Shown in pieces: positions 3,010-61,904 of a DNA stretch of 64,000 nt (position 1 is the stretch's first letter; each line of letters begins with the position of its first letter). The position numbers and the translations under genes are program-made. The DNA comes from Minisyncoccota bacterium (GTDB taxonomy: Bacteria > Patescibacteriota > Minisyncoccia > UBA6257 > GWB1-50-10), in NCBI GenBank assembly GCA_020059585.1, contig JAGVBU010000012.1, positions 11,079 to 75,078 on the forward strand, written 5' to 3'. The notes beneath the pieces are model-generated. The model searched no databases, had not been told where the DNA came from, and saw only the letters and a program-made list of their open reading frames with translations.

Positions 3010-3120
3010 CTCATTAGAAAATTATTTTATATTCGACGCGCCTCCCTCTTTTTATTTTTATATTCATGTTTAGTCATCATTCTCCCCGTCTTTTTTCACG
3101 GGAGATATACGATATGTATA

Positions 3121-7803: not shown

Positions 7804-8349
7804 ATGAAAGAAAAGTTCAACTTTGAAAATAGTACACTCATCGCCGGACTTGGAAATCCGGGAAATGAGTACGAAAGGACATTTCATAATGCCGGAGCGC
7901 AATTCGTTTCTTTTGCGGTAATACAACACGGAGAGAACATCGGGTGGAAAAAACATTCCTCCGGACTCTTTACATACGCGAAACGCGAAGGACGTATATT
8001 TCTCGTTCCTCTTGTGTTTATGAATGAATCAGGGAGCGCTATCCTCCGCGCGTTATCATTCTTCAAGATCCCCGCAGAAAAAATGATAATTGCGCATGAT
8101 GATTCTGATATAGGAATAGAGTCCTACAAGATCGACTATGGACGGGGTGCGGCGGGACATCGCGGCGTTGCGAATGTGATGAACGTACTCGGCACAAAAT
8201 CGTTCTGGCGGATCCGCATAGGAATACGGGATATGCGGGAAGAAAAAAGGATGAAAGCGGAAACGTTTGTCCTCTCTAAGGAGACGCGGGAAGAAAAAGC
8301 CGCTCTTGAGCGGACATTTCTTTCGATCCTCGAGGAAACACACTTATAG
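7804..8349 (+). CDS. pth: Peptidyl-tRNA hydrolase
   Basis: IAGLGNPGNEYERTFHNAGAQFV N-terminal signature. Confidence 0.9.
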   Translation: MKEKFNFENSTLIAGLGNPGNEYERTFHNAGAQFVSFAVIQHGENIGWKKHSSGLFTYAKREGRIFLVPLVFMNESGSAILRALSFFKIPAEKMIIAHDDSDIGIESYKIDYGRGAAGHRGVANVMNVLGTKSFWRIRIGIRDMREEKRMKAETFVLSKETREEKAALERTFLSILEETHL

Positions 8350-9861: not shown

Positions 9862-9874
9862 TGTGAAATAAAGA

Positions 9875-10357
9875 CTATTCTATCGCCTGCTCCTGTATCG
9901 ATTCGAGTTGTACACGTCCCGTCACCATATCGACAAGTAGTTGCGTTCCGAGCTTCTTCTGTCTACTTCCCGCGTAACCGACACTCTCAATGATATACGC
10001 GTATCTTCCGTTTTCGGTGTCCGTCGTCCTGCATATCATGACTTCCGCGGAATCGCTTCCAACAGCGAGAGAATATGTGTAAGGAGAGTCACAGGCATTT
10101 GAAACGAACTCCTTGTTTTGGGAAATTCTCATTATTCCATCTCTTGCTCCGGAATGCGCCGCGGCATTCGCGCGAACAGAAAGACGCTCTCCATATCCTG
10201 ACGTACTCAAAAAATAAGCAACAAATGATCCCGCAATAGCAATCTCAACAATGATGCCGCTTACTAGAAGAATAAAAGGAAGCGTCATCTGTCCTGATTC
10301 GTTTCGAGCACGCGTACGCATTAATGATATCATACCAAAAAAAAGAAGGGGGGGCAC
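9875..10357 (-). CDS. TadE-like / pseudopilin-like protein
   Basis: N-terminus ...RARNESGQMTLPFILLVSGIIVEIAIAG fits the TadE-like pattern (R..GQ..VEfAl + hydrophobic helix). Confidence 0.4.
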   Translation of the reverse strand: MPPLLFFGMISLMRTRARNESGQMTLPFILLVSGIIVEIAIAGSFVAYFLSTSGYGERLSVRANAAAHSGARDGIMRISQNKEFVSNACDSPYTYSLAVGSDSAEVMICRTTDTENGRYAYIIESVGYAGSRQKKLGTQLLVDMVTGRVQLESIQEQAIE

Positions 10358-10373
10358 CCTTCTTTTCCGGTCA

Positions 10374-10682
10374 TTATATCTCGGTGATAGTCACCGTTGC
10401 GTGTGTCTGACGATGTCCCTTGAGTTTTCGGTAGCGAGTTTTCGAATGAAATCTGAACACTATCTTTTTTTTATCTCTTTTTTCGCTCAGTATGGTGCCC
10501 GAAACCACGGCGCCGGAAATGTAGGGATCTCCAACTGAAATTTCTTTTCCGTCGCTTTTAAGAAGCACTTTTTCAAAGCTGACCGGTCCCTCCACCGCGC
10601 CAAGACGCTCGCAGAGAATAGTATCCCCTTTCGATACTATATATTGTTTTCCCCCCGTTTCTATAATTGCAAAGCTTTTCAT
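10374..10682 (-). CDS. rplU: 50S ribosomal protein L21
   Basis: MKSFAIIETGGKQYIVSKGDTI matches the L21 N-terminus. Confidence 0.9.
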   Translation of the reverse strand: MKSFAIIETGGKQYIVSKGDTILCERLGAVEGPVSFEKVLLKSDGKEISVGDPYISGAVVSGTILSEKRDKKKIVFRFHSKTRYRKLKGHRQTHATVTITEI

Positions 10683-15073: not shown

Positions 15074-15568
15074 TTACTCCGGTTTCTTGTTTTTCAATAT
15101 AAGTTCATACGCCTCCTGACGCGAGATGATCTTTGTGCGGATGCCGTTCCTTATTCCCATTCCCTTCAGAAATATTGCCGAGTCCTGCACCTCATAGACG
15201 ATATTCTTCGCAACAATGATCCACGCCCGCGTAGCAACATAATGTTTTCCAGGAACTTTTCCCTTTCCAACTTTCTTGGGATTTCTTTTGTGCGCCTCCT
15301 CGATCGTCTTTTCCCATGAATCACTTTCATAGAGAATGATAAAAAGTTCTCCGTCGAGAAGCTCATTCCTCAGTCTCTCGATGTGCGTTCCGGCAAGATC
15401 CCCGCGTCCGAGCTCTTCGCCGTTCTCATTGTACCAACCCGCGTTTTTCGCGAACCGGAAGTCTCTCGGGACTATCGCCCCAAAAGAAATACCAAAAAGG
15501 TTACTTGGTTTTTTCTTTCTGTTCCATTCGTACAATCCCTTCGTGAGACGGCTCGTTGTCTTTTTCAT
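15074..15568 (-). CDS. Hypothetical protein
   Basis: 164-aa ORF with no recognisable motif. Confidence 0.35.
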   Translation of the reverse strand: MKKTTSRLTKGLYEWNRKKKPSNLFGISFGAIVPRDFRFAKNAGWYNENGEELGRGDLAGTHIERLRNELLDGELFIILYESDSWEKTIEEAHKRNPKKVGKGKVPGKHYVATRAWIIVAKNIVYEVQDSAIFLKGMGIRNGIRTKIISRQEAYELILKNKKPE

Positions 15569-16621: not shown

Positions 16622-16665
16622 CAAAACGAAAACTTCCGCTATATTTAACGGAAGTTTTCATTATG

Positions 16666-16736
16666 TGGACCTAGGCAGAATCGAACTGCCGTCTCGGCAA
16701 TGCGAATGCCGCGTTCTACCACTGAACCATAGGCCC
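16666..16736 (-). tRNA. tRNA-Ala (anticodon CGC)
   Basis: Reverse complement is GGGCCTA-TG-GTTC-AGTGGTA-GAAC-G-CGGCA-TTCGCAT-TGCCG-AGAC-GGCAG-TTCGATT-CTGCC-TAGGTCC-A. G3:U70 identity pair present. Confidence 0.85.
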
Positions 16737-27990: not shown

Positions 27991-28029
27991 GAAAACCCCG
28001 TCAGTCCATAGACTGGCGGGGTTTCTTTG

Positions 28030-28100
28030 TCGGGCTGCCGGGAATCGAACCCGGTCTACCTGCTCCCAAAGCAGGCGTACTACCGGTATACTACAGCCCG
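28030..28100 (-). tRNA. tRNA-Pro (anticodon TGG)
   Basis: Reverse complement is CGGGCTG-TA-GTA-TACCGGTAG-TAC-G-CCTGC-TTTGGGA-GCAGG-TAGA-CCGGG-TTCGATT-CCCGG-CAGCCCG-A. Confidence 0.8.
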
Positions 28101-31946: not shown

Positions 31947-32017
31947 GCGGGATTCGTATAGTGGTAGTACGTCACCCTTCCAAGGTGAAGGCACGGGTTC
32001 GATTCCCGTATTCCGCT
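31947..32017 (+). tRNA. tRNA-Gly (anticodon TCC)
   Basis: GCGGGAT-TC-GTAT-AGTGGTAG-TAC-G-TCACC-CTTCCAA-GGTGA-AGGC-ACGGG-TTCGATT-CCCGT-ATTCCGC-T. Confidence 0.8.
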
Positions 32018-32076
32018 CAAAAACTGTAACGTTACAGTACGTGCGAAACAAAAATACGACTCCATCGTTATAGATT

Positions 32077-40948: not shown

Positions 40949-41032
40949 GCCGGGATGGTGAAATTGGCAGACACGTAGCGTTCAGAGCGCTATCGCCGTA
41001 AGGCGGTGAGGGTTCAAGTCCCTCTCCCGGCA
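40949..41032 (+). tRNA. tRNA-Leu (anticodon CAG)
   Basis: GCCGGGA-TG-GTGAAATTGGCAGACAC-G-TAGCG-TTCAGAG-CGCTA-long variable arm-GAGGG-TTCAAGT-CCCTC-TCCCGGC-A. Confidence 0.85.
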
Positions 41033-41107
41033 CACGCTGAGTTTGCGGAAGAGTATTCTACTGCGTTTCAGCAAAAAACGTCATATATAGTCGAAAAAAA
41101 TAAAAAT

Positions 41108-51410: not shown

Positions 51411-53033
51411 TTACATTTTTTTAGGAGCAGATATTCCTATACAGTGAAACACGGAGCGGAATACATTCCGAGCCGCGAATACAAGCGCGAGACGAGGAAC
51501 GGAAATTGCGCCATCTGGACCGATTACTCGTTCGTGTTCATAAAAATTATGGAACGCGCGCGCAAGATCGAATGCGTATCGGGTAAGTCGATGCACCTCG
51601 TAATCCCGCGCGGTATCGGCAACGACACACGGAAATTCCGCGATGCGGCGTATGAGATTCATATCATGCGGCGAGAAAACAAATTCGGAAAATACGTCGC
51701 TTTCTGACTTCGGCTCCTCCGCTCCCGATTTTTCTATAATATTTTCCGCGCGTACGTGCGCATACTGCACATAATAGACTGGGTTTTTCATGGACTGCTC
51801 TTTCGCGAGATCAAGATCAAAATCAAGATGAGTGACTGGAGCGCTCGAAAGGAGAGAAAACACAAGATTATCGGAACCCACCTCATCCAAAACTTCTTTT
51901 GCGGTCACATATGTCCCCGCGCGCTTCGACATTTTCACAACCTCCTTTCCCTTCTTTACGCGCACAAACTGATAAAGTAACACGGAGAAATATTGCGGAT
52001 CGAATCCGAATATCCTTGCGAGTGCCTGAAGTTTAGGCACGTGCCCGTGATGATTGCTTCCGAAAACATCAATGACTATGTCGTATCCCGACTCAAATTT
52101 TTCCCTGTGATACGCGATATCAGAGGCAAAATACGTCGGCTTACCATTCGAACGGACTACAACCGACTCTCGATCTTCTAAAAATTCATCTTTCGGCGCA
52201 AACCACCACGCGCCCTCCGATTCTTTGAGCATCCCTTTTTTCTTGAGAAAGGCGATGGACGATTCCGTTTTCCCTTTGGAGAGGAAATCGCTTTCCTTAA
52301 AAAAACCATCGAAATGTATCCCAAGGCGGCGAAGCACATCCTCATTCTCTTTAAGAATAAATTCAAGGGTAAAATCGGTGATTGTGCCTATATCACTCAT
52401 AGAAAGCGCTCCGCCAAGCGTCGCATGCGCCGCCCGCGCGACTTCCTCGAGATAGGTTCCTTGATATCCCCCCTCTGGAAACTCCGCGCTTCCACCGCGT
52501 ATCGTCTCATACCAATACCATACGGTCGCGGCAAGCTTCTCTATCTGAGTGCCTGCGTCGTTATGAAAATATTCGCGAAACGTCTCATATCCCGACATCT
52601 CAAAGACGCGGGCAATCGATTCGCCATATGGGCCTCCGCGGGCATTCCCAATATGTATCGGTCCAGTTGGATTCGCGGACACATACTCTATGCGCGCCTT
52701 GCGCCCCGTTCCTATAGTATTCTTTCCGTATTCGGAACCAAGCATAAGATTCTTCTCGATTTCTCGGAAAAAAAATTGAGGGTGAATATAAATATTCACG
52801 AACCCTGGGTGTACCGCCTCCACATTTGAAAAAATATCTTCTCCTGATTTCTTAATAGTTTCGGAAATTTCCCGAGCAACCTCAATCGGCGATCTGCCCT
52901 TTCTTTTTGCGAGCCCAAAGGCGCAATTCGCGGAAAAATGTCCCCGCGTGTCGTCGTCCTGAAATTCAAGAGTCCAATCCCCAAGATCGGAAACCAACTC
53001 TTCAATCCGTGCTTTTACAATATCACGAAGCAT
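51411..53033 (-). CDS. argS: Arginyl-tRNA synthetase
   Basis: SANPTGPIHIGNARGG (HIGH region) and C-terminal DALR anticodon-binding domain. Confidence 0.9.
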   Translation of the reverse strand: MLRDIVKARIEELVSDLGDWTLEFQDDDTRGHFSANCAFGLAKRKGRSPIEVAREISETIKKSGEDIFSNVEAVHPGFVNIYIHPQFFFREIEKNLMLGSEYGKNTIGTGRKARIEYVSANPTGPIHIGNARGGPYGESIARVFEMSGYETFREYFHNDAGTQIEKLAATVWYWYETIRGGSAEFPEGGYQGTYLEEVARAAHATLGGALSMSDIGTITDFTLEFILKENEDVLRRLGIHFDGFFKESDFLSKGKTESSIAFLKKKGMLKESEGAWWFAPKDEFLEDRESVVVRSNGKPTYFASDIAYHREKFESGYDIVIDVFGSNHHGHVPKLQALARIFGFDPQYFSVLLYQFVRVKKGKEVVKMSKRAGTYVTAKEVLDEVGSDNLVFSLLSSAPVTHLDFDLDLAKEQSMKNPVYYVQYAHVRAENIIEKSGAEEPKSESDVFSEFVFSPHDMNLIRRIAEFPCVVADTARDYEVHRLTRYAFDLARAFHNFYEHERVIGPDGAISVPRLALVFAARNVFRSVFHCIGISAPKKM

Positions 53034-53096
53034 AATGCATTCACTTTATACCGAAAATAAATGTTGGGCAATAAATAAAAAGAGCGCGTATTGCGC

Positions 53097-53549
53097 TCAT
53101 TGTAATGCCTTATAATTGTGTATGATTCCGTCCGGTGTTTCAGAAACTATGATGCGATATATTCCGAATGGATTCTTTGTGTTTCTCTCAAGTTCATCGC
53201 ATGTGATGTGAATGAGATCGATAAAACCGGAGCGCACCGCGAAAAGAAGTTCACTCATCCGCGACCCTACGGGAAACACATCTCTTCTTTTCCATAATTC
53301 TCTCATCCGATTCTTCCGGAGACGATCCATAAGATCTTGGTGCCCCTCCTTTACAATCACAAATATTCTTTCTCTTCCGCGAAAAAATTCACGTGCGGCA
53401 TCCGCGGTCTCCTTTGAGTTCACTAATATGTATATACTGTCGCCGTTGTCTGTTATGAAATTAATCACGGGAGGAACGTTATCACGGATATCACTGTTGG
53501 GACCGAATACTACGGATTCGAAAAATAAAAACGTTTTTTCCATTGTCAC
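53097..53549 (-). CDS. Hypothetical protein
   Basis: 150-aa ORF. Confidence 0.35.
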   Translation of the reverse strand: MTMEKTFLFFESVVFGPNSDIRDNVPPVINFITDNGDSIYILVNSKETADAAREFFRGRERIFVIVKEGHQDLMDRLRKNRMRELWKRRDVFPVGSRMSELLFAVRSGFIDLIHITCDELERNTKNPFGIYRIIVSETPDGIIHNYKALQ

Positions 53550-53589
53550 TCCCCTTTTCTATGTTACTTTGCTACCCTAAACATATACT

Positions 53590-54024
53590 ATGAAGACGAT
53601 TGCGGTCAATAAACGGGCGGAATTCGATTATGAAATTCTCGAACGATTCGAGGCGGGATTGATGCTGACCGGACACGAAACAAAATCAATACGACTCGGC
53701 CACGCAAACCTCGCGGGTGGACGCGCCATTATCCGCGGAGAAGAAGCATTCGTCGTGGGACTACAAATCCCCTCATTTCAGCCAGAAAATAAACCCGACG
53801 GATATGACACGGAAAGGACGCGCAAGCTTCTCCTTTCGAAAAAAGAGATACGCCATCTTTTCGGAAAAACGCAAACGGGATTGACTCTTATTATCACGAA
53901 ATTGTATAATAAAGACCGCCTTCTGAAGCTTGAACTCGCGCTTGCGCGCGGAAAGAAGAAACACGATAAGCGTGAGGTAATCAAAAAACGGGAAACAGAA
54001 CGGGAGATACGAAGGGGGTTATGA
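53590..54024 (+). CDS. smpB: SsrA-binding protein
   Basis: IAVNKRAEFDYEILERFEAGLMLTGHETKSIR SmpB signature. Confidence 0.9.
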   Translation: MKTIAVNKRAEFDYEILERFEAGLMLTGHETKSIRLGHANLAGGRAIIRGEEAFVVGLQIPSFQPENKPDGYDTERTRKLLLSKKEIRHLFGKTQTGLTLIITKLYNKDRLLKLELALARGKKKHDKREVIKKRETEREIRRGL

Positions 54025-54102
54025 AGTCTGTAGAATATATGGAACAGAAAGTAAATCAAAAGTTATTTAAAAATTAAAAATTCATTTGTGAAAAAAATAC
54101 AT

Positions 54103-54423
54103 GGGGATGACGGGCCTCGACAATGTGGCCTCTCCGCAGACTGCGTGCCGAGCTCGAATATCTCGTAAAACTGTCCGAACAAACAATAACTGCCAACAAA
54201 ACAGCAGTTCCGGCGTTCGCCTTCGCGGCATAACGCTCATCGGGCCCAAGGTCTCATAGGGATCACCCGGTGTTATATCTGAGACTCGTTCCGTAAAAAC
54301 CGCTTTGCATATACGGAATCAAAGACGCGAAGCACCATTGTTTCGGACGTTAGTCCAAAAACTACGCATGTAGAGTGTCTGTGAAGAACTCATTGGACGC
54401 CGGTTCAACTCCGGCCATCTCCA
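54103..54423 (+). ncRNA. ssrA: tmRNA (ssrA), ~321 nt
   Basis: 5' end GGGGATGACGGGCCTCGAC (consensus GGGGnnGAnnGGnnTCGAC). 3' tRNA-like end GGACGCCGGTTCAACTCCGGC-CATCTCC-A with a G3:U70 pair. Candidate tag ORF GCC AAC AAA ACA GCA GTT CCG GCG TTC GCC TTC GCG GCA TAA (ANKTAVPAFAFAA*) at 54192-54233. Adjacent to smpB. Confidence 0.85.
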
Positions 54424-55948
54424 CATCTTGTACATTGGGATCAATAACCTGTTTAAAAACCCTTAAAGGAAGGGATAATTCTGCGGTTCCAAAACCATTT
54501 TGAGGATCGTAGGCGAGTTTTGATTCAAATATAATCTTGAATATCAATCGTTTTTCGGATAAATCCTCTTTTTCCCATTGTGTATGTGGGTTCTTTAGTA
54601 TTTCAAAAACTTTTTCGAGGGCGGTTTCAAAGCTTATAGATAATTTTTGTTGAGTGCCATTAATTCGTTCTTCGAGTACTTTTCTTTCCTCGGAAAGCCT
54701 TTCTATCTGCTGTTCATATTCCTGAATTAGCGTTTCTTTTTTTGATTTAGAAACCCGATCCATAAAACCGTCCACCTCTCCTAGTATTTCTTTGAGGCGA
54801 TTCTTGTCCTTTTCTTCACGCTTTTTAACTTCTCCCACTTTTTCATTCCAGATATCGAGTGTTATGGCTTTTGTTAGTTCAAGCACACCCGGCTTAGGTT
54901 TTATATGCCTTAAAATCGCCCCAAAACTGCCCTCTATAACGCTTTTAGGCACCCCTTTATTCCTCATAAGACAACTTACAGAAGCACACCTATAATAGCC
55001 GAATTTTGCATTTCTACCTCTACTCCAACTTGCAGTGTATGGTTTCCTGCAGTGTTCACAAAGAACGAATCCACGAAGGGGAAAGTCGGGGTTAGCGTCT
55101 TTCCTTGTTTGAGTCCGGACTTTGCCCAAGAGTTTTTTCTGAATTTTTTCAAAAGTTTCTAAACTTATAAGCGGTTTATGGTGTCCCTTTCTCCGTGATA
55201 CCTCCCAAGGAAGATATTCAACGTAGCCAGCGTAGATTGAACGCATCAGAAGACGTTTCACATCTTCTACATACGGTTTTTTCCCTTTGCGCTTTCCATA
55301 ATAGTTTTTTGAAACAAGGAATCGCAACACGTCCATCTGCTCGTATAGCTCTCCTGAGGCGTATTTTTCCAATGCTTCGCGTATAGTGGTCGCTTCTGGT
55401 TCCGTAGAAACCAATAGTTTGCCGTGTATCGGGTCCTTTTTTTGTACATACCCGGGAGGAGGATAAAACGGCCAATATCCTTTTTCTAAGCGAGCTTTTT
55501 GCTTTTGAATAACCTGACGCTTATTCTGCTCTCGTTCTAATTGCCCCTGGGCAGCAAAAATCGTTTCTACAAATGCGCCCTCGGGACTATCATCAAAATT
55601 ATAATTGAGACACTCGGGCTTTAATTCACGCGCACGAAACTCACGTCGTAGATTCCAATGGAAAATGGTGTCTCGAGCAAATCGTTTTAGATCGTCAAAA
55701 ATTACAACGTATTTTTTGTGTCTATTTTTATCTGCATAATCGAGTAAGGACCGCATTGCTGGCCGATTCATAAAATCTCCGCCCCCACTAAAGCTGTCTC
55801 GAAATACCCGTTCTATCTCGTATCCTTTCGTCCGTGCATATTCACGACAACGATGTTCCTGACTATCTAGCCCGTGTCCATCGTTCTTCTGTCTTTCGGA
55901 AGAAACACGGCAGTATATAAGTGCGAATGTTTTCTGCATATACATCAT
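54362..55948 (-). mobile_element. Large serine recombinase (integrase) whose C-terminal coding region overlaps the last 62 nt of tmRNA
   Basis: N-terminal catalytic domain YCRVSSERQ (catalytic Ser), recombinase domain, Cys-rich zinc ribbon (CEHCRKPYT...YYRCASVSC) and coiled-coil; 528 aa. Confidence 0.85.
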
Positions 55949-56082
55949 TCTAAATCTTTAAAGTAATTATCCAATACTTTCCTCGCTATTGCATAAATAG
56001 CGCCTCGAAGCTCTTCGAGTTCTTTGTCGGATAAATTATTTAGATCGGGGGCGATCTTTTTACACTCATCGAAGGTTAACAT
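55945..56082 (-). CDS. 45-aa ORF translationally coupled (ATGA overlap) to the serine recombinase; possible recombination directionality/regulatory factor
   Basis: MLTFDECKKIAPDLNNLSDKELEELRGAIYAIARKVLDNYFKDLE; its stop overlaps the recombinase start. Below the ORF-track threshold and found by hand. Confidence 0.3.
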   Translation of the reverse strand: MLTFDECKKIAPDLNNLSDKELEELRGAIYAIARKVLDNYFKDLE

Positions 56083-56471
56083 AGTGGCAAGAACAACAAA
56101 TAAAAAACGCCATTTTGGCGCTATTCCGATCTCTTAAGCGCCGAAGTAAACGGGCGATTAAGAGGAATAATTAGATTTGTTGTTTGTGCCGAAACGCTGG
56201 TTTCCGCACTAAGTTAACTCCCCCTGATTGATATTAAATTTTTAACTTTTTTAGTATAACACTTTCGTGCTAATATACAAACACAACTGAATAGCCATTA
56301 GGCAAACCTAACCCGTCGAGAAATCGGCGGTATGGTCCAAAAAACGGTTCAACGTACTAAGCTCCTAGTCAGAGCACGTTGAACCGTCATACGGGGAAAC
56401 CTGTATGGGTCCGCAAGGATCGCTGGCTGGGAGCTTTGTGTTTTCCCGCCAGCAACGAAAAACAAAATAAA

Positions 56472-56621
56472 ATGCCAAACTGGTTGCAAATAGTCGTTTT
56501 CATAATAGTCGGCTTCTCGCTGTTTTGGGGCGGAATTTATATTTTCTCCTGTATCAAAAGTGGTGAAAAATTAACTTGGAAAGGTCTCTTCGGTGCGATA
56601 ATCGGATCTATGTTCAAATGA
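56472..56621 (+). CDS. Small (49-aa) single/double-TM protein
   Basis: MPNWLQIVVFIIVGFSLFWGGIYIFSCIKSGEK... Confidence 0.3.
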   Translation: MPNWLQIVVFIIVGFSLFWGGIYIFSCIKSGEKLTWKGLFGAIIGSMFK

Positions 56622-56791
56622 AACAAAATGAGTATAAACTAATCGCTTTCTGGCTGTTCATTCTTCACTGGAGTTTTGTTATTGCTATAGCGATAAAATC
56701 AGAATACTTTTCCGGTTGGATTAAGTGGATTGTGTCTATATCACTTCTCGCCGCGGTTGTCTTTTATGTGTCGAGTGGTGAGAAAAAGTGA
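56576..56791 (+). CDS. Small (71-aa) 2-TM protein, overlapping the previous ORF
   Basis: Two hydrophobic helices; follows the preceding small ORF. Confidence 0.3.
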   Translation: MERSLRCDNRIYVQMKQNEYKLIAFWLFILHWSFVIAIAIKSEYFSGWIKWIVSISLLAAVVFYVSSGEKK

Positions 56792-57000
56792 ATATACCCC
56801 TTTGAAAAACTGATTTATTTTTCAAAAAATCAAACTGAAAAAACACGGCATTTGCTGTGTTTTTTCTTAAAATCTAGGTTTTTTAACCTAAAAACCTGTC
56901 GAAGTGTTTTACAACAGTAAAATTACTTATTTTTGGTCAAAAATGGCGCGGCGCATAATAAAAGGAGTTTACACGGCGCCGTCAAAAGGTGTAGAAAAAA

Positions 57001-58581
57001 CTACACTTTCGTTTTTTGTAGCTCGCTCAAGCAACCTACCGGTATAACTCCGTTTCTTGTGCTATCTTCCTTATCTCCGGTTCTAATAATACCGACAACG
57101 GATCCGGTTTTATTCAAGAGTGGTCCACCACTCATTCCGCCTGATATATTTTTTCCTATCATAATAAGATTCACGCCATTTCTTACGCGCCGCCCAACAC
57201 ATTTATCGAAAAATGTATATGGATCCATACCGGCGCCGTATTCAGGAAACCCCACCGCGATTAGGTCGGCTCCAACACTTGGTTCAATGATGTCTTTCTT
57301 AAGCGGGTATTCTTTCTGCCCACTTCCTGTGATTTTTAAAACTACTAAATCAATTGCTTTGGGTGCTTCTGCAATTTTTTCTAAAGAGAAGCGCGTGGTG
57401 ATCGAATCAGACCTAAAAGCCTTAAGTGCTGTACAAAAAACGTGCCCACAGGTGACGATTCCATACCCCTCTAAATCAAAACCTGTTCCTTGGTGATATC
57501 CACCCCCACAAGATTCGTCACACTCCAAGATCCATAAAGCTTTATAAGCCTTTTCTACATCTCCTAAAACATATCTAGGAGGCATACCAATAGCGCTACA
57601 GAATGAATTTTCCAATTTTTGATATATTCTATTTTCTTCTCCTCTTATAAATCTGATAAAGCTAATTTTCCCTTTTATGGTTTTGATTATGTTTTTCTCC
57701 GTCTTTTCATTTTCTTGAAATATTTTTTGAGCCCCGTCGGACCCATATTTTCTAACAAGAAAAATTAATGTTCTTATGTTTCTAATAAAATCGCGACCAA
57801 CATTCGTAAATTCATTCACAGTCAATCCGGTAACACGCTGTCTTTGTTTTTTTGTTTTTAATCTTGTCTTTTTTTCGTTAACAACAAACGAATTCTCTTT
57901 TATGAGATTTTCAAGAGTGCTACCAATGCAACCGTCTCCGTCAACAATACTTTGTCCAAACCTTTTTTCTGTTGTCGAAAATGTAATATCATCGGCGTAC
58001 CTTGTATAAAAACATCGGTTCTTAATAGCTAATCCTTGAATCTCGCTATCCAATCTCGAACAAACTATATTAGATAATATTGGAGACGTTGGCGCTCCTT
58101 GTGGCAGACTGCCATCAACACAACAAATATTTGCGACGCATTCGGCGACATTAGGGGGTAAATTATAAGGATTCGCCATCAGCACGCCTCTTACTCTTTT
58201 ATCAGATATAGATTGAAAAAAATCGCTCAGATCCAGGTTAAAAACAAGTTCTTTTCTTTTGTGTTTATCGGAATTCGTAAGTATAGTTTTATCCCTACAA
58301 AAACCGTGAGCTGGAGCCTTCTGTTTATATATTAAATATAAGCACTTAGAAAGTCTTCGTTGTATATTTTTTAAATACGGAATCGGTGCTCTTATGTCTC
58401 TGAGTCCACCCGACTTTTTTCTTATCTGGAATGTTTTATAAAACATTCCCTGTTTTCGATTCATTAAGGCTTTGAGCAGCTCTCTCCTAATACCTAAATA
58501 ATCAGCAACGTCGTCCGTTGTTTTTAGGCTCAAAAAGTCATTTTTTCTTTTTTTTTCTAATTCGTTTCTTGGCGTTCCCAT
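57001..58581 (-). CDS. Retron-type reverse transcriptase fused to a C-terminal trypsin-like (S1) serine-protease domain
   Basis: RT motifs: KKSGGLRDIRAP (motifs 1/2), FNLDLSDFFQSI (A), LPQGAPTSPILSNI (B'), YTRYADDITF (C, YADD), QRVTGLTVN (retron-specific VTG). C-terminal ~190 aa has the His/Asp/Ser triad context GIVTCGHV...DLVVLKI...GMSGGPLL (compare GDSGGP). Confidence 0.8.
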   Translation of the reverse strand: MGTPRNELEKKRKNDFLSLKTTDDVADYLGIRRELLKALMNRKQGMFYKTFQIRKKSGGLRDIRAPIPYLKNIQRRLSKCLYLIYKQKAPAHGFCRDKTILTNSDKHKRKELVFNLDLSDFFQSISDKRVRGVLMANPYNLPPNVAECVANICCVDGSLPQGAPTSPILSNIVCSRLDSEIQGLAIKNRCFYTRYADDITFSTTEKRFGQSIVDGDGCIGSTLENLIKENSFVVNEKKTRLKTKKQRQRVTGLTVNEFTNVGRDFIRNIRTLIFLVRKYGSDGAQKIFQENEKTEKNIIKTIKGKISFIRFIRGEENRIYQKLENSFCSAIGMPPRYVLGDVEKAYKALWILECDESCGGGYHQGTGFDLEGYGIVTCGHVFCTALKAFRSDSITTRFSLEKIAEAPKAIDLVVLKITGSGQKEYPLKKDIIEPSVGADLIAVGFPEYGAGMDPYTFFDKCVGRRVRNGVNLIMIGKNISGGMSGGPLLNKTGSVVGIIRTGDKEDSTRNGVIPVGCLSELQKTKV

Positions 58582-58591
58582 ACTCTATCTT

Positions 58592-58719
58592 TGGGGAATA
58601 TAAGATTCTTGAAACATAAAACATCTATAAAACACAAAACGCGTAAACCGCGAAGCCAATATTGTGCCATTTAGGCAGGACCGCGAATACACAGCCCGAA
58701 GGCAATCTTATATTCCCCA
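58592..58719 (-). ncRNA. Candidate retron msr/msd non-coding RNA flanked by a1/a2 inverted repeats
   Basis: Perfect 16-nt inverted repeat tggggaatataagatt (58592-58607) / aatcttatattcccca (58704-58719) encloses 96 nt with hairpins (GCC-UUCG-GGC, CGCG-GUUUA-CGCG). There is a G immediately 3' of a1 (branching-G position) and the a2 repeat lies 12 nt upstream of the RT start codon. Confidence 0.6.
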
Positions 58720-58775
58720 CCATAGTATGCGCCAAAGAAAATGTGAATTCAAACCACTTATTTAAGAAGAGACGC

Positions 58776-59675
58776 CTATTCTGTAAAAGGAAGTTTTATT
58801 TGTACTGCCGCACTGCGATGATCTAATACTTTGTTAATTGAGTATTCGGTCTTGATCTGTCCATTTGTAAGAAATTGTTTTCTTCTTAAGAAAACTTTTA
58901 AAACATCGTCCTTTGCAAAATATTTCTCGTTTTTTTGAACCCTTCTCACAAAATCCGGATCGGATATTTCGGCAAAAAACGTAGAGCTTCCATCAGAAAA
59001 ACGCCACTTCCCCTCCTCCTGAAATGAAATGTTTACTATCTGTAGATTTGTTTCAATTTCTCTTTCGTCAATTAATTCCTCTTCGGCTTCTGGGGCTGTA
59101 AAATATTCTGCTTCCTCTTTTGTTATTTCTATTTTTTTCCCGTCGTGCTCAAACTTTACCTTATCAACACCCTCTCTAGAAAGTGGTGCGGATATTACAG
59201 CTTCAATACTCTTTCTTATATTTAAAAATCTAAAGAGCTGGATTTCTTTCTTCGTTGCAATTTTTACTTCTCCGTTTTCTACCTCCACCTTATAATCGCC
59301 CGTATCTAATTCTACTATGCTTTTTATAGGGCGCTTTTTTAGAAACTTGATGAGACCAACAACGCCGCCAACACCGCCAAGTCCGAGAACTCCGATAAGC
59401 TCTTTGGCGTTTATTATTGCGGTTACTTCGTCGCTTCCAAAAAGTGTCTTCGCTTGATCAAGAAGACCTTGTGTAACAGAAAGTAAAACTTCTACAGACC
59501 CCGGTTCTGTTGCTTTTATTTTTACAGCGATTCTAACTCTCTCGCCGTTTAAGATTTGATTTGAGTTTTCGAATAATTCTCCCACAGCCAGTAACGCGGG
59601 CGCGAGATCTTTTACATCCATTTCATTCCGCTCAAGCGCAATTCCTCCATATCCTAGTTTAAAAAATTCATCCAT
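58776..59675 (-). CDS. Hypothetical 299-aa protein, co-oriented and immediately upstream of the retron ncRNA/RT (possible accessory or effector partner)
   Basis: No recognisable motif (a Gly-rich GLGGVGGVVGLIKFL segment). Ends 57 nt before the a1 repeat. Confidence 0.4.
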   Translation of the reverse strand: MDEFFKLGYGGIALERNEMDVKDLAPALLAVGELFENSNQILNGERVRIAVKIKATEPGSVEVLLSVTQGLLDQAKTLFGSDEVTAIINAKELIGVLGLGGVGGVVGLIKFLKKRPIKSIVELDTGDYKVEVENGEVKIATKKEIQLFRFLNIRKSIEAVISAPLSREGVDKVKFEHDGKKIEITKEEAEYFTAPEAEEELIDEREIETNLQIVNISFQEEGKWRFSDGSSTFFAEISDPDFVRRVQKNEKYFAKDDVLKVFLRRKQFLTNGQIKTEYSINKVLDHRSAAVQIKLPFTE

Positions 59676-59711
59676 ATTTCTTAAAAAGAAAAATTACCGA
59701 TAAAAATTCAT

Positions 59712-59734
59712 ATATGTGTATATTATACACATAT
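59712..59734. promoter_or_regulatory. Perfect 11-bp palindrome atatgtgtata-t-tatacacatat (candidate operator) 37 nt upstream of the 299-aa gene start
   Basis: Perfect inverted repeat with a 1-nt spacer in the divergent intergenic region. Confidence 0.4.
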
Positions 59735-59964
59735 TTTTCCCAGGATGTGTACCTATTTCTCTATTATTCCACGCAAACAAATGGTTTTTTTGTGCCTTTT
59801 AATATCGAACTTATCTCAAAAATGTATGATTCAAGCTGGTTCCAATATTTTCGAACGGTGTCCACCACTTCGCCCCTCCCACAAGGAGGGGCTTCGCGGT
59901 GCGCAGCACTGCGGAAGGAAGTGGTGAACCCCGCGTAAGTTCACTGAAGTGGGGTGTATATAAA

Positions 59965-59993
59965 TTGACATAATAAGATTTATATTATATAAT
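59965..59993 (+). promoter_or_regulatory. Consensus sigma70-type promoter TTGACA-17-TATAAT
   Basis: TTGACA at 59965-59970, 17-nt spacer, TATAAT at 59988-59993, ~95 nt upstream of the 60089 CDS. Confidence 0.55.
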
Positions 59994-60088
59994 AATAGGG
60001 CACTTTTAATAAATAAATACTGGCCGAATGGCGGTATCGATTAACAAAAAACCGGAGCAATTCGCTCTATAACCTAAGGAGGTTAGAA

Positions 60089-61252
60089 ATGTCACAGCAG
60101 ATCAGAAGAATAGTAACCCACGAAGACCCCCATCTCGACGAGATTGCGGCACTATGGCTCATTCTACGATTCGGAAAGGAAAAATTTCCAGGTGCGGAGA
60201 ATGTGTTTGTAGAACTCGTCGATAACAACGCACAAGTAACTCCCGAAAAGGGATTACTCGCGCTTGGCGTCGGCGGCGGTATGTTCGATGAACACCCCAA
60301 ACCGAACAAAGCAAGAAAAAGCGACGAATGCACCGCGACACTAATCGCAAAGTATATCGGCGTTGATATGGATGATGAAAATATCGTTCGTATCCTGAAT
60401 TTCGTAAAAAATGCCGATCTTAAGGCAAGCGGCGGAACATTCGACCTCGCGCAGATGGTAAAAATCCTTCACGCGCAAAAAATGGAGACCGAAGAAGTAA
60501 TAGCGTGGGCGTTTATGGCGCTCGACGTGAAGATGGACGATCCGCGTGAAAGCGGAGACTTCTCTCTTCAATATATCGCGTTTCTTTTGCGGGAAATGAA
60601 TCCGAACGAACCGGAAATCGCGTACGAATGGTTCAAAATCGGAATGGAGGCGAAACTCGTTGATCAAACAAAATTCTTCGCGGATACCTACGGCGAATTC
60701 CACAATAATGCTAATGTTGAGGAGATTAAGAGTCTTAAAAGGACCCTTACTCTCGTATCAATACGATCAGACAATGATCAGATGGCAAAAATCGCTCGCT
60801 CAAAAAAACATGGTGCAGATGCCGATATAGTCCTCCAGATAAATTCTTCGGGAAACGTGGGAATTTACACGAATCAGAAACATGGGAAAATCAACCTTGA
60901 ATCCCTCGTGCGCATGCTGAATGCGGAAGAGCAGCGCATGCGGAAGGATATTCATACTACCGACTGGGACGCGCTCTCTGCGGAAGGAATGATCCCGAAT
61001 GGATTCTGGTACTACCATATTCAGGGACAATTTGTTCTTAACGGATCGAAGACGGCGCACGTTGAGCCGACAAAGATACCGTTTGAGAGAATTGTTGAAA
61101 TGGTAAAAATCTCCATGTATCCGAAAGATGAAATGGAGAAACACTGTGATCTCAAAACCTGCGTTTCTTCAAGAAAAAAACCGTGCCCATTATACGCTTT
61201 CGGACTTGGGGCGTGCAGAAAAATCCGATACGACTCGAAATACAAGAAATAA
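60089..61252 (+). CDS. MYG1/UPF0160-like metal-dependent hydrolase (tentative)
   Basis: N-terminus IVTHEDPHLDEIAALWLIL matches the MYG1 pattern (IGTHNGTFHCDEALACALL); GVGGGMFDEH resembles the MYG1 VDVGG..YD..HH block. Confidence 0.35.
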   Translation: MSQQIRRIVTHEDPHLDEIAALWLILRFGKEKFPGAENVFVELVDNNAQVTPEKGLLALGVGGGMFDEHPKPNKARKSDECTATLIAKYIGVDMDDENIVRILNFVKNADLKASGGTFDLAQMVKILHAQKMETEEVIAWAFMALDVKMDDPRESGDFSLQYIAFLLREMNPNEPEIAYEWFKIGMEAKLVDQTKFFADTYGEFHNNANVEEIKSLKRTLTLVSIRSDNDQMAKIARSKKHGADADIVLQINSSGNVGIYTNQKHGKINLESLVRMLNAEEQRMRKDIHTTDWDALSAEGMIPNGFWYYHIQGQFVLNGSKTAHVEPTKIPFERIVEMVKISMYPKDEMEKHCDLKTCVSSRKKPCPLYAFGLGACRKIRYDSKYKK

Positions 61253-61355
61253 TTAATATTCCAAAAGAGAGGCATTATCACGCCTCTCTTTTTTTTGACA
61301 ATCCAAAGACTTCGTCATATACCTAGAATCAGAACCATAAAAAAGGAAGGAATAT

Positions 61356-61904
61356 ATGGAATCTATCGAAAGAACGATCACATTCTCGATACTAGATCCG
61401 GAGGAACTCTCCGAAGATGAGAAAGAACTCCTCTTCGCGGCATATGAGGCTCGGCAAAAAGCACAGGCCCCCTATTCGAAATATATGGTAGGCGCCGCAA
61501 TACGAGTGTGGAATGGAAACGAAATATTCACCGGATGTAATGTCGAAAGAGCATCATATACTCAGACGACACACGCTGAACAGGCGGCAATAGACGCGGC
61601 GGTAGGAAAATACGGACCAAAAACAAAACTGAAAAAGATCGCGATTGTCTCTGCTCCCGAGGGCGTAGAAATACCAATATCGTTCGTAGAAGACCTAGAG
61701 TGGACTATTCAATTTGCCCACCCATTCGATCCGATCAACCAGCCAATTGTCCCCTGCGGGCATTGTATGCAAATTATCTGGGAAAATTGCCAAGGAGACG
61801 ATTTGATCGAGCTGCTTGCGATCCACCAAAGCGGAAGCGTCACAAAAACAACGATTGGACATGCATTCCCTTGGAAGTTCGGACCTGAAGACATTAAAAA
61901 ATAA
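61356..61904 (+). CDS. cdd: Cytidine deaminase
   Basis: Zinc-binding motifs HAEQAAI and PCGHCMQ. Confidence 0.75.
   Translation: MESIERTITFSILDPEELSEDEKELLFAAYEARQKAQAPYSKYMVGAAIRVWNGNEIFTGCNVERASYTQTTHAEQAAIDAAVGKYGPKTKLKKIAIVSAPEGVEIPISFVEDLEWTIQFAHPFDPINQPIVPCGHCMQIIWENCQGDDLIELLAIHQSGSVTKTTIGHAFPWKFGPEDIKK

What the first reader, a model, noticed from the sequence alone, without database searches (positions are those of the whole stretch)
54103..60088. ~6-kb genomic island integrated at the 3' end of tmRNA (ssrA), carrying a large serine recombinase, the retron, and small accessory genes
smpB is followed by a tmRNA gene whose last 62 nt are overlapped by the C-terminal coding region of a 528-aa large serine recombinase on the opposite strand. 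That is the usual signature of an integrated element that supplies a replacement 3' end for its target gene. The region from the recombinase to ~60.0 kb is visibly more AT-rich than the flanking core genes. It contains the retron, a co-oriented 299-aa unknown protein, two overlapping small TM proteins and a 45-aa ORF coupled to the recombinase. The divergent intergenic region 59676-60088 holds a perfect palindromic operator candidate and a GC-rich structured segment, and could contain the distal att site. This pins the retron to a mobile, tmRNA-targeting defence island.
Basis: partly seen in the sequence, partly recalled or inferred. Interest (0 to 1): 0.6.

Follow-up and report, generated by a model that had tools for sequence, protein, structure and literature searches.

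The report
Serine-recombinase defence mini-island at tmRNA end
A 5.4-kb mobile element has inserted exactly at the last bases of the tmRNA gene of a candidate-phyla-radiation bacterium, bringing a retron and a second candidate phage-defence gene. Its serine recombinase belongs to a large, little-described clade that targets the 3' ends of tRNA and tmRNA genes.

Summary
The island is real. Three contigs of the same species (L001, L087, L088) have smpB-ssrA joined directly to the 387-aa gene. Their breakpoints are window 54424 and 59861, sharing a 5-bp core, TCCAC. The element is therefore 54425-59865 (5,441 bp, 38.5% GC against 46.0%), not 54103-60088.

All 63 overlapped bases are host tmRNA. 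The element starts after the discriminator plus one C, so the encoded CCA becomes CAT. The recombinase gene has no stop codon of its own: its last 20 codons are read antisense from ssrA.

This holds across the family. In at least 64 of 76 related loci the ORF runs into an antisense tRNA or tmRNA 3' end. The closest precedent is DsiB of the Dehalococcoides ssrA islands.

The conserved backbone is the recombinase, a coupled 45-aa ORF, a LOOT RNA (RF03000), two small membrane ORFs and a 51-bp P arm. The cargo slot (about 56893-59814) holds a type XI retron and PDC-S42. A sister element at the same site carries PDC-M68B instead.

Verdict: a new variant of a known kind, of moderate to high interest.

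The parts
53590..54024 (+). smpB (host; context only)
   Evidence: Pfam SmpB, 4.6e-44. The identical protein is found in the empty-site contig L001.
54103..54424 (+). tmRNA gene ssrA (host). It is intact up to the discriminator A plus one C. The encoded CCA of the empty allele (..TCCACCACTT) is changed to ..TCCACATCTT.
   Evidence: ARAGORN; Rfam 126.8 bits; attB/attL comparison.
54420..54424 (.). attL core TCCAC, the only sequence shared by attB and attP. The crossover must lie within it.
   Evidence: The alignments of L001, L087 and L088 end or start here with a 5-nt overlap.
54362..55948 (-). Large serine recombinase, 528 aa in the integrated state. Residues 1-508 are element-encoded (54425-55948). 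Residues 509-528 and the stop codon are read from the antisense strand of host ssrA (54362-54424).
   Evidence: Pfam Resolvase, Recombinase and Zn_ribbon. The conserved catalytic motif YCRVSS is present. More than 2,600 homologues. The AF2 model is confident to about residue 501 and below pLDDT 50 for 502-528.
55945..56082 (-). 45-aa ORF, translationally coupled to the recombinase (4-nt overlap). Conserved backbone gene and candidate recombination directionality factor or regulator (inferred).
   Evidence: tblastn finds it directly upstream of the recombinase, on the same strand, in 25 related loci. No hit in Pfam, PHROGs, NCBIfam or PADLOC.
56106..56122 (-). Terminator-like hairpin plus T-run immediately upstream of the 45-aa ORF. 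Possible attenuator of recombinase expression (inferred).
   Evidence: Consensus scan only.
56305..56421 (+). LOOT RNA (Rfam RF03000), a four-hairpin RNA that is part of the element backbone.
   Evidence: 84.8 bits against a gathering score of 46.4. Found above gathering in 14 of 16 related CPR loci scanned. In-session model R1 gives 19 hits (window plus 17 CPR-type loci, two in L025) and none in proteobacterial loci.
56472..56621 (+). Small membrane ORF 1 (49 aa), starting 51 nt after the LOOT RNA.
   Evidence: ORF and hydrophobicity analysis. 90-95% nt identical in the sister element L086.
56618..56791 (+). Small membrane ORF 2 (57 aa), overlapping ORF 1 by 4 nt.
56893..59814 (.). Cargo slot. 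Similarity to the sister element L086 stops at 56892 and resumes at 59815.
   Evidence: blastn and sliding identity against L086.
57001..58581 (-). Retron reverse transcriptase fused to a trypsin-like protease (type XI).
   Evidence: Pfam RVT_1 plus Trypsin_2. PADLOC RT-Protease_XI, 8.8e-159 over the full length. YADD and VTG motifs are visible in the translation. Homologues all share the same architecture.
58593..58720 (-). Retron non-coding RNA (msr-msd), closed by a 15-16-nt inverted repeat (a1/a2: GGGGAAUAUAAGAUU... / ...GAAUCUUAUAUUCCCC), immediately upstream of the RT.
   Evidence: RNA fold of -50.4 kcal/mol, z-score -4.38, with none of 200 shuffles as stable.
58776..59675 (-). 299-aa protein matching PADLOC PDC-S42, NCBIfam NF053583 (LAPAL motif family) and PHROG 3243. 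A stand-alone candidate defence gene, independent of the retron.
   Evidence: PADLOC 2.6e-94. NCBIfam 257.9 bits and PHROG 3.3e-71. No RT neighbour in four homologue contexts.
59712..59734 (.). Perfect 11+11 palindrome overlapping a promoter-like site (59751-59722, minus strand). Candidate operator and promoter of the cargo operon (inferred).
59815..59860 (.). P arm of attP. With the adjacent core (59815-59865, 51 bp) it is 90% identical to the sister element L086; the 34 nt ending at the core differ from L086 by one mismatch. In the excised circle it would encode the recombinase C-terminal tail.
59861..59865 (.). attR core TCCAC.
59866..60088 (+). Host DNA: the native ssrA downstream hairpin (59863-59901) and a perfect sigma-70-like promoter (59965-59993) of the 387-aa gene.
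   Evidence: Contiguous with the tmRNA in L001, L087 and L088. Features.

Best explanation
Window 54425-59865 is a 5.44-kb integrative element of a CPR (Parcubacteria/Paceibacterota-type) bacterium. Its own large serine recombinase inserted it into the extreme 3' end of ssrA.

Recombination took place between attP and attB within a 5-bp common core, TCCAC. That core comprises the last three acceptor-stem bases, the discriminator A and the first C of CCA.

The tmRNA body stays host-encoded. Only the encoded CCA tail and the native downstream hairpin are displaced.

attP lies inside the 3' end of the recombinase gene, so the gene carries no stop codon of its own.
- In the integrated state it reads 20 codons antisense through the tmRNA T-arm, giving 528 aa.
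- In the excised circle it would read into the P arm, giving 541 aa with a different tail.

The element has a conserved backbone and an exchangeable cargo slot.
- Backbone: recombinase, a coupled 45-aa ORF, the LOOT RNA, two small membrane ORFs and the P arm.
- Cargo here: two independent defence modules, a type XI retron (RT-protease plus its ncRNA) and PDC-S42.

Shown: the insertion, its boundaries, the family-wide targeting of tRNA and tmRNA genes, the modular structure and the identity of the cargo.

Inferred: that the recombinase is still active; that the 45-aa protein is a directionality factor or regulator; that the tail swap or convergent ssrA transcription regulates the recombinase; and how the element moves between cells, since it has no transfer genes.
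For: **Empty sites.** L001 is 99.94% identical to the window on the left flank. L087 and L088 are two further conspecific contigs. All three join window 54424 to 59861 with a 5-nt overlap.

**att sites.** attL, attR, attB and attP were reconstructed.

**Composition.** The island is 38.5% GC against 46.0% for the rest, about 6 sd below any other 5.4-kb window.

**The recombinase looks intact.** It has all three Pfam domains and retains all residues that are invariant in the alignment.

**Family behaviour (80 related loci, 76 evaluable).**
- In 58 loci an antisense tRNA or tmRNA gene overlaps the ORF end by ARAGORN. The targets are tRNA-Ala 24, tmRNA 19, Met 4, Tyr 4, Leu 3, Arg 2, Lys 1 and Val 1.
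- Six more qualify when longer read-through or Rfam calls are counted.
- All junctions fall at ..TCCAC| in CPR loci or ..CCACCA| in Proteobacteria.
- Distal repeats of 11-22 nt define elements of 3.5-8.4 kb.

**Same site, different element.** L086 carries a recombinase 69% identical in amino acids. Its 45-aa ORF 5' part, LOOT and membrane-ORF module is 83-95% identical in nucleotides, and its P arm has one mismatch. Its cargo is different: DUF2326, matching PADLOC PDC-M68B at 2.8e-50, plus MC6.

**A relic at the same site.** A 178-nt relic bounded by TCCAC occurs in L086 and L089.

**Cargo identity.**

**The swapped tail lies outside the fold.** pLDDT is below 50 from residue 502.

**Precedent.** Dehalococcoides dsiB "always overlaps attL at its 3' end", with its stop codon in ssrA (PMC3146451).
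Against: - No excised circle was found. Exact-match scans for the attP junction and the P arm in metagenome and viral contig collections returned nothing. Current activity is therefore unproven.
- The element has no recognisable transfer, replication or packaging gene.
- The flank haplotypes switch at the site. L001 has 1 mismatch in 1,702 nt on the left but 56 in 1,517 nt on the right. This particular lineage could have acquired the island by homologous recombination of the flanks rather than by a fresh integration.
- A CCAAT/ATTGG symmetry in attP centres on the left edge of TCCAC, not inside it. The exact crossover dinucleotide is unresolved.
- Excised-state tails are not conserved across the family, which argues against a general function for the tail.
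Confidence: 0.9

Rival explanations
1. The element is what it appears to be, but this lineage acquired it by homologous recombination of the flanking DNA, for example after DNA uptake from a related strain. On this view the recombinase did not act in this genome.
For: The haplotype breaks at the site. L001 is nearly identical on the left (1 mismatch in 1,702 nt) but has 56 mismatches in 1,517 nt on the right, and L087 and L088 share that other right-hand haplotype. The element has no transfer genes. The tycheposon work describes flanking DNA moving together with elements.
Against: The junctions are exact at the 5-bp core and match those in all family members. The right-flank differences cluster about 0.9-1.35 kb from the junction, inside the 387-aa gene, which may simply be a variable gene.
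Confidence: 0.2
2. The region is ancestral, and the contigs without it are deletions.
For: Absence alone cannot distinguish an insertion from a deletion.
Against: The empty allele restores a canonical ..ACCA tmRNA end and its downstream hairpin. The region is about 7.5 GC points below the genome. A different element occupies the same site in L086. Even a precise deletion at TCCAC would be recombinase-mediated excision, which leads to the same conclusion about what the element is.
Confidence: 0.04
3. It is a decayed prophage or a phage satellite rather than a defence-carrying integrative element.
For: The 299-aa protein matches NCBIfam "LAPAL motif-containing putative phage structural protein" and PHROG 3243. 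The recombinase matches PHROG 95, integrase.
Against: The element has no capsid, terminase, portal, replication or lysis genes in 5.4 kb. Related elements of 3.5-8.4 kb also lack them. The recombinase has no relative above 30% identity among 50,697 phage records. LAPAL homologues sit alone among housekeeping genes.
Confidence: 0.06
4. It is an assembly or binning chimera that joins foreign DNA to ssrA.
For: The source is a metagenome-assembled contig, and one related contig (L089) breaks right at this site.
Against: Both junctions lie inside a single 91-kb contig. The same architecture recurs in dozens of independent assemblies, including complete or near-complete chromosomes.
Confidence: 0.02

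Closest known systems
Dehalococcoides ssrA-specific genomic islands with the serine recombinase DsiB (McMurdie et al. 2011, PMC3146451; read)
   Same: The target is ssrA. A serine recombinase of about 540 aa lies next to attL on the opposite strand. Its ORF always runs across attL and finds its stop only in ssrA or in the neighbouring island (about 70 bp of overlap). Tandem arrays and relics occur at the site. The elements are cargo-carrying and have no transfer genes. The nearest curated NCBIfam model here is CcrB (88.8 bits, far below its cut-off), which agrees with that paper's observation that DsiB is most like CcrB.
   Different: Here the identity between attB and attP is 5 bp at the discriminator/CCA position. 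It is not a 20-bp direct repeat with an insertion point inferred in the T-loop. There is no six-gene integration module (no DsiA, RecF, ParB or Mom homologue, and no embedded tRNA-like locus). Instead there is a 45-aa ORF and a LOOT RNA. The host is a CPR bacterium, and the cargo is defence genes rather than reductive dehalogenases. Sequence relatedness to DsiB could not be tested because its sequence was not retrievable with these tools.
Classical tRNA/tmRNA genomic islands with tyrosine integrases (Williams 2002; Islander database, PMC4383910; read)
   Same: Site-specific insertion at the 3' side of a tRNA or tmRNA gene, with the integrase gene next to that gene and preservation of the target's function.
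   Different: The recombinase is a serine recombinase. [quoted passage not shown] No fragment of the target gene is duplicated in this element. The target is preserved because the crossover lies at its very last bases, not because the element rebuilds it.
SCCmec with CcrAB/CcrC, and large serine integrases of phages (phiC31, Bxb1, A118, TP901-1); comparison from general knowledge apart from the cited hits
   Same: The domain architecture is the same (catalytic domain, recombinase domain, zinc ribbon with a coiled coil). The common core is short. SCCmec also inserts at the 3' end of a conserved housekeeping gene (rlmH/orfX).
   Different: Identity to any phage or plasmid recombinase is 30% or less. 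NCBIfam CcrB/CcrC scores are far below their cut-offs. The target is an RNA gene, and attP lies inside the recombinase ORF.
Tycheposons of Prochlorococcus (Hackl et al., bioRxiv 10.1101/2020.12.28.424599; read)
   Same: Small cargo-carrying integrative elements at tRNA and tmRNA genes in streamlined genomes. They show modular cargo exchange, tandem insertions and relics, and lack conjugation genes.
   Different: Of 937 tycheposons, 910 use tyrosine recombinases, and many carry replication genes. No LOOT RNA or stop-less serine recombinase is described for them.
Integrase or repressor genes interrupted by attP (SSV1-type integrases; integration-dependent immunity of mycobacteriophages); from general knowledge, not tested here
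   Same: Integration changes the coding sequence of an element gene because attP lies inside it.
   Different: Those cases involve tyrosine recombinases, and integration splits the integrase gene or truncates the repressor gene with a known functional consequence. Here only a tail predicted to be disordered, after residue 508, is swapped. A functional consequence is not shown.

Membership tests
Large serine recombinase (serine integrase) | N-terminal resolvase catalytic domain with the nucleophilic serine | tested here: met
   PF00239, 1.1e-23. The YCRVSS motif aligns with TP901-1 YTRVST. R14, S16 and S17 are invariant in 29 homologues.
Large serine recombinase (serine integrase) | C-terminal recombinase domain plus a zinc ribbon with an inserted coiled coil | tested here: met
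   PF07508, 3.5e-08. PF13408 scores 23.7 bits, just below its cut-off of 25.3. Four invariant Cys residues. The AF2 model shows long helices at 353-436.
Large serine recombinase (serine integrase) | Catalyses attP x attB recombination at a 2-bp crossover | not testable with these tools
   Only the 5-bp shared core TCCAC could be delimited.
Dehalococcoides ssrA-GI / DsiB-type element | Integration at ssrA, with the serine recombinase ORF overlapping attL and stopping in ssrA | tested here: met
   63-nt overlap, with the stop codon at 54362-54364 inside ssrA. Described for dsiB in PMC3146451.
Dehalococcoides ssrA-GI / DsiB-type element | [quoted passage not shown] | tested here: not met
   Only 5 bp are shared, and the window has no other copy of the tmRNA 3' end. 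Some family members do carry repeats of 11-22 nt.
Dehalococcoides ssrA-GI / DsiB-type element | Six-gene integration module (DsiB, DsiA, RecF-like, ParB-like, Mom-like, RNA polymerase-domain protein) with an embedded tRNA-like locus | tested here: not met
   The backbone holds only the recombinase, a 45-aa ORF, the LOOT RNA and two small membrane ORFs.
Dehalococcoides ssrA-GI / DsiB-type element | The recombinase is orthologous to DsiB | not testable with these tools
   The DsiB sequence (ACZ62382) could not be retrieved. The only indirect hint is that CcrB is the best curated match.
tDNA genomic island in the Islander sense | Intact tRNA or tmRNA gene plus a displaced fragment of it flanking an island that encodes a tyrosine integrase | tested here: not met
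   The recombinase is a serine recombinase and no displaced fragment exists. Definition taken from PMC4383910.
Retron type XI (RT-protease) | Retron-clade RT fused to a C-terminal trypsin-like protease | tested here: met
   PADLOC RT-Protease_XI, 8.8e-159, residues 16-522 of 526. Pfam RVT_1 plus Trypsin_2.
Retron type XI (RT-protease) | Adjacent structured ncRNA closed by the a1/a2 inverted repeat | tested here: met
   58593-58720(-), closing stem of about 15 bp, z-score -4.38.
Retron type XI (RT-protease) | Produces msDNA and protects against phage | not testable with these tools
   An experiment is required.
PADLOC candidate PDC-S42 / NCBIfam LAPAL family | Full-length match to the family profile | tested here: met
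   PDC-S42, 2.6e-94, residues 4-297. NF053583, 257.9 bits against a cut-off of 60. The two libraries disagree on function (defence candidate versus phage structural protein).
LOOT RNA (Rfam RF03000) | Covariance-model score above the gathering threshold over the whole model | tested here: met
   84.8 bits against 46.4, model positions 1-121.

The most novel reading that the evidence does not exclude
The backbone seen here comprises a stop-less serine recombinase whose attP lies in its own last codons, a coupled 45-aa protein and the orphan LOOT RNA. On this reading it defines a widespread and so far undescribed family of miniature integrative elements.

These elements target the discriminator/CCA end of tRNA and tmRNA genes and shuttle exchangeable defence cargo between CPR bacteria. 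Integration would swap the recombinase C-terminus and place the gene under convergent ssrA transcription, acting as a built-in switch between integration-competent and quiescent states. The LOOT RNA would be an element-encoded regulator of that switch or of the downstream membrane ORFs.

The related clade in Rhodobacterales and other Proteobacteria would extend serine-recombinase targeting of tRNA genes well beyond Dehalococcoides.
Probability: 0.3. Interest if true: 0.75.

Novelty: new variant of a known kind. Interest (0 to 1): 0.6.

Why it matters
1. It shows a clade of large serine recombinases, with thousands of homologues in CPR bacteria and in Alpha- and Gammaproteobacteria, that consistently targets the last bases of tRNA and tmRNA genes. 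tRNA- and tmRNA-gene targeting has been treated as a property of tyrosine integrases. The only described exception found here is DsiB at Dehalococcoides ssrA. Such enzymes have short, highly conserved natural targets and could be useful for genome engineering.

2. This element narrows the crossover to 5 bp at the discriminator/CCA position. That explains how a serine recombinase can use an RNA gene without rebuilding it.

3. It gives the orphan LOOT RNA a genomic home, the backbone of these elements, which makes its function testable.

4. It documents defence-cargo exchange at one hotspot in CPR bacteria, whose small genomes are poorly understood in terms of immunity and gene flow. One element carries a retron XI plus PDC-S42, and its sister carries PDC-M68B.

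Tried and rejected
- **Second copy of the tmRNA 3' end.** Searched the window by blastn-short and k-mers. Nothing beyond chance matches of 13 nt or less was found. The "replacement 3' end" model was rejected.
- **Excised circle or other copies.** Exact scans for the attP junction (28-mer) in metagenome and viral contigs, and for the P arm plus core (24-mer) in metagenome contigs, gave 0 hits.
- **Is the 299-aa gene a retron accessory?** Four homologue contexts show no RT neighbour. Rejected.
- **Do related elements carry known defence systems?** Pfam and PADLOC on 20 cargo ORFs from six delimited relatives gave mostly nothing. The few hits were proteases, an HTH domain and a TIG domain. "Defence island" therefore applies to this element and to L086, not demonstrably to the whole family.
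- **Crossover centre from attP symmetry.** A GnTnCCAAT / ATTGG inverted motif centres on the left edge of TCCAC, which is incompatible with attB. Inconclusive.
- **Conserved excised-state tail.** It is conserved between the window and L086: 17 codons, with all 5 nucleotide differences synonymous. It is not conserved in six other elements, so no general claim is made.
- **Literature on LOOT.** The main text of Weinberg 2017 does not describe it, and its supplements are not held.
- **TIGER paper.** PMC7192596 is not held.
- **DsiB sequence.** Not obtainable, so homology to DsiB is untested.
- **Solved structures.** Only the catalytic domain matches by sequence.

Full report
**1. Observation**

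ARAGORN and Rfam place a tmRNA gene at 54103-54424(+), downstream of smpB at 53590-54024. A 528-aa ORF at 54362-55948(-) has the Resolvase, Recombinase and zinc-ribbon domains of a large serine recombinase. Its last 63 nt overlap the tmRNA 3' end.

- Retron RT at 57001-58581(-).
- A 299-aa ORF at 58776-59675(-).
- A 45-aa ORF at 55945-56082(-), overlapping the recombinase start by 4 nt.
- Two small hydrophobic ORFs overlapping each other by 4 nt (56472-56621 and 56618-56791).
- A perfect 11+11 palindrome at 59712-59734.
- A GC-rich hairpin at 59863-59901.

The stretch is 38.5% GC and the rest of the window 46.0%. No other 5.4-kb window falls below 44.0%.

**2. Empty sites and exact boundaries**

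An exact-protein look-up of SmpB returned a 3.2-kb contig, L001. It aligns to window 52723-54424 at 99.94% identity and then jumps to 59861-61377. Two more conspecific contigs, L087 (GCA_020724625.1) and L088, show the same jump.

The two alignments overlap by 5 nt, TCCAC. This core is present at 54420-54424 and again at 59861-59865. The element is therefore 54425-59865, or 5,441 bp.

The att sites are as follows.
- attB: ..GGCCATC-TCCAC-CACTTCGCCCC..
- attL: ..GGCCATC-TCCAC-ATCTTGTACATT..
- attR: ..TTCGAACGGTG-TCCAC-CACTTCG..

The core covers the last three acceptor-stem bases, the discriminator A and the first C of CCA. The window has no second copy of the tmRNA 3' end. The element therefore does not rebuild the gene.

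It leaves the tmRNA body untouched and changes the encoded tail from CCA to CAT. None of the ten tRNA genes in the window encodes CCA. This genome must therefore add CCA after transcription, and the change is probably harmless (inference).

**3. A recombinase gene without its own stop codon**

The junction falls after codon 508. In the integrated state the last 20 residues (EMAGVEPASNEFFTDTLHA) and the stop codon are read from the antisense strand of the tmRNA T-arm. In the reconstructed circle the ORF would continue into the P arm, giving 541 aa with an unrelated tail.

An AlphaFold model built on 29 homologues is confident up to about residue 501. It falls below pLDDT 50 for residues 502-528. 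The swapped part therefore lies outside the folded enzyme.

**4. This is a property of the whole clade**

The recombinase has more than 2,600 homologues at E <= 1e-20. The named ones come from Parcubacteria/Paceibacterota MAGs. In the alignment the conserved body ends at ..LSLPLRVFE. After about ten variable residues comes V-E/D, followed by tails such as VEMGGIEPPC, VEVGGFEPPS and VDRTGLEPATPSLQMRCSTR. These tails are the antisense translation of tRNA T-arms.

I fetched 80 related loci from species-representative genomes. They include CPR MAGs at 50-58% identity and Rhodobacterales, other Alphaproteobacteria and Gammaproteobacteria at 44-47%.

Of these, 76 can be evaluated.
- In 58 loci ARAGORN places an antisense tRNA or tmRNA gene across the end of the ORF. 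The targets are tRNA-Ala 24, tmRNA 19, Met 4, Tyr 4, Leu 3, Arg 2, Lys 1 and Val 1.
- Six more qualify when ORFs that read further, or Rfam tmRNA calls, are counted.
- Six others have tRNA-like tails without a called gene.

All junctions fall at ..TCCAC| in CPR genomes or ..CCACCA| in Proteobacteria.

In seven loci a repeat of 11-22 nt of the target gene's 3' end lies 3.5-10 kb away and ends at or within the junction core. In six of them it starts exactly at the target gene's last base, which defines small elements of 3.5-8.4 kb. Their cargo is mostly unknown proteins and proteases, with no transfer or phage genes.

The window's element has only 5 bp of shared identity. It therefore sets the tightest limit on where the crossover lies.

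**5. Backbone and cargo**

The contig L086 comes from the same species and has the same flanking genes. It carries a different family member at the same site.

The two elements compare as follows (unless noted).
- The recombinases are 69% identical in amino acids (65-77% in nucleotides over most of the gene).
- Window 56015-56813 is 83-95% identical in nucleotides. This stretch holds the 5' part of the 45-aa ORF, the intergenic region, the LOOT RNA and the two membrane ORFs.
- The last 51 bp (P arm plus core) are 90% identical.
- Between 56892 and 59815 there is no similarity.

In that gap L086 has a DUF2326 protein, an MC6 protein and small ORFs. The DUF2326 protein matches PADLOC PDC-M68B at 2.8e-50. 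The window instead has the retron and the 299-aa gene.

The 45-aa ORF lies directly upstream of the recombinase in 25 related loci.

The LOOT RNA (RF03000) scores 84.8 bits in the window. It was found above the gathering threshold in 14 of the 16 CPR loci scanned. A model built here gives 19 hits in all (the window plus 17 CPR-type loci) and none in proteobacterial loci. The hits lie 0.4-2.6 kb upstream of the recombinase, in either orientation. An ORF with an N-terminal membrane helix often follows 40-60 nt downstream.

L086 and L089 also hold a 178-nt relic bounded by TCCAC cores, the trace of a third insertion.

The site therefore exists in at least four states: empty, relic only, the window element, and the sister element plus relic.

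**6. Cargo**

The RT-protease matches PADLOC RT-Protease_XI over its full length at 8.8e-159. A 128-nt RNA closed by a stem of about 15 bp lies just upstream, with a z-score of -4.38.

The RT has few close relatives. One is 62% identical, one 47%, and the rest are 41% or less. The named relatives come from non-CPR phyla. This fits horizontally acquired cargo.

The 299-aa protein matches three profiles.
- PADLOC PDC-S42, 2.6e-94.
- NCBIfam NF053583, "LAPAL motif-containing putative phage structural protein", 257.9 bits.
- PHROG 3243.

Its homologues are single genes in unrelated neighbourhoods without an RT. It is therefore a second, independent module, and its function is disputed between the libraries.

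**7. Mechanism**

Shown:
- a site-specific insertion within TCCAC at the ssrA terminus;
- a recombinase ORF completed by host DNA;
- a modular backbone and cargo slot;
- repeated use of the site.

Inferred:
- The recombinase is active. All invariant residues are present.
- The 45-aa protein is a directionality factor or regulator.
- ssrA transcripts, now separated from their native hairpin, read antisense into the recombinase gene. The terminator-like hairpin at 56106-56122 would also limit its expression.
- The tail swap may distinguish the circle-encoded enzyme from the chromosome-encoded one.

Evidence for the last point is weak. The first 17 codons of the excised-state tail are identical between the window and L086, and all five nucleotide differences are synonymous, including TCA to AGC. 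The tails of six other elements are unrelated.

No circle junction was found in the public contig collections.

**8. Comparison with known systems**

The closest precedent is the ssrA-specific islands of Dehalococcoides. [quoted passage not shown] Those islands differ in two ways. They have a 20-bp direct repeat with an insertion point inferred in the T-loop, and they have a six-gene integration module. Neither is present here.

[quoted passage not shown] I could not read the later TIGER paper. I therefore cannot exclude that part of this clade is already catalogued.

Tycheposons are functionally similar mini-islands, but almost all of them use tyrosine recombinases.

No sequenced phage or plasmid encodes a relative above 30% identity.

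**9. Verdict**

The finding is confirmed, with corrected boundaries and a corrected reading of the overlap. The island itself is a new variant of a known kind.

The results that reach beyond the original finding are these:
- the clade-wide targeting of tRNA and tmRNA 3' ends by a stop-less serine recombinase;
- the 5-bp crossover window at the discriminator/CCA position;
- the placement of the LOOT RNA in the backbone of these elements;
- the exchange of defence cargo at one hotspot in CPR bacteria.

Noticed in passing
window 56305-56421 (+); also L006, L010, L011, L013, L014, L018, L020, L023-L026, L028, L031, L033, L034, L051, L063: The orphan Rfam motif LOOT (RF03000) is a backbone component of these serine-recombinase elements in CPR genomes. 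It was not found in the proteobacterial relatives. It lies in either orientation relative to the recombinase and is often followed 40-60 nt later by an ORF with an N-terminal membrane helix. Its function is unknown.
   Followed up: partly
L090 (ENA ERZ21828333 contig, 4,084 bp): RT 2380-3954, tmRNA 3' end at 4012: The closest relative of the retron RT (62% identity) also sits directly against the 3' end of a tmRNA gene, at a junction ..TCCAC|AT. It has a PIN_12 protein and smpB on the other side, and no recombinase in between. This may be a decayed element of the same kind.
   Followed up: partly
L086 (about 3266-3443 in locus coordinates) and L089 1-17: A 178-nt GC-rich relic is bounded by TCCAC cores, and its distal end copies 12 nt of the tmRNA end (GGCCATCTCCAC). 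It follows ssrA directly in L089 and follows the P arm of the intact element in L086. It is either a remnant of an older insertion or a miniature non-autonomous element.
   Followed up: partly
window 59861-61377 compared with L001, L087 and L088: The flank haplotypes switch at the insertion site. L001 differs from the window by 1 nt in 1,702 on the left and by 56 in 1,517 on the right. The differences cluster at about 60760-61210, inside the 387-aa gene, and all three empty-site contigs share the same right-hand haplotype.
   Followed up: partly
window 60089-61252 (+): The conserved 387-aa host protein next to the site has no family assignment. Its only hit is weak, ChrB_C at 23.5 bits, below the cut-off. 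A perfect TTGACA-17-TATAAT promoter precedes it at 59965-59993.
   Followed up: no
window tRNA genes at 272-343, 1361-1434, 1653-1726, 16665-16736, 20167-20238, 22815-22887, 24071-24144, 28029-28100, 31947-32018, 40949-41033: None of the ten tRNA genes encodes CCA. Each has a C followed by mostly A-rich sequence after the discriminator. The native tmRNA allele does encode CCA.
   Followed up: no
L025 (LSR 9001-10536; LOOT at 7838-7948 and 15359-15479; tmRNA 17556-17964): This locus has two LOOT RNAs and a recombinase whose tail is not tRNA-like, lying 7 kb from the tmRNA. This suggests two family elements in tandem at ssrA.
   Followed up: no
loci L003, L007, L014, L018, L034 and others (record titles): Several CPR-type recombinase loci sit in MAGs labelled Saccharibacteria, Woesearchaeota or Thioalkalispiraceae. 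The labels may reflect binning or classification errors, or real spread of the elements.
   Followed up: no
window 58776-59675 (-): Two curated libraries give the same family conflicting functions: PADLOC candidate defence gene PDC-S42, and NCBIfam "LAPAL motif-containing putative phage structural protein". Its homologues occur as single genes among housekeeping genes in CPR and other phyla.
   Followed up: partly
L010 1056-1315 and 18012-18353: A group I intron and an RNase P RNA lie close to one of the recombinase loci. They are unrelated to the finding.
   Followed up: no
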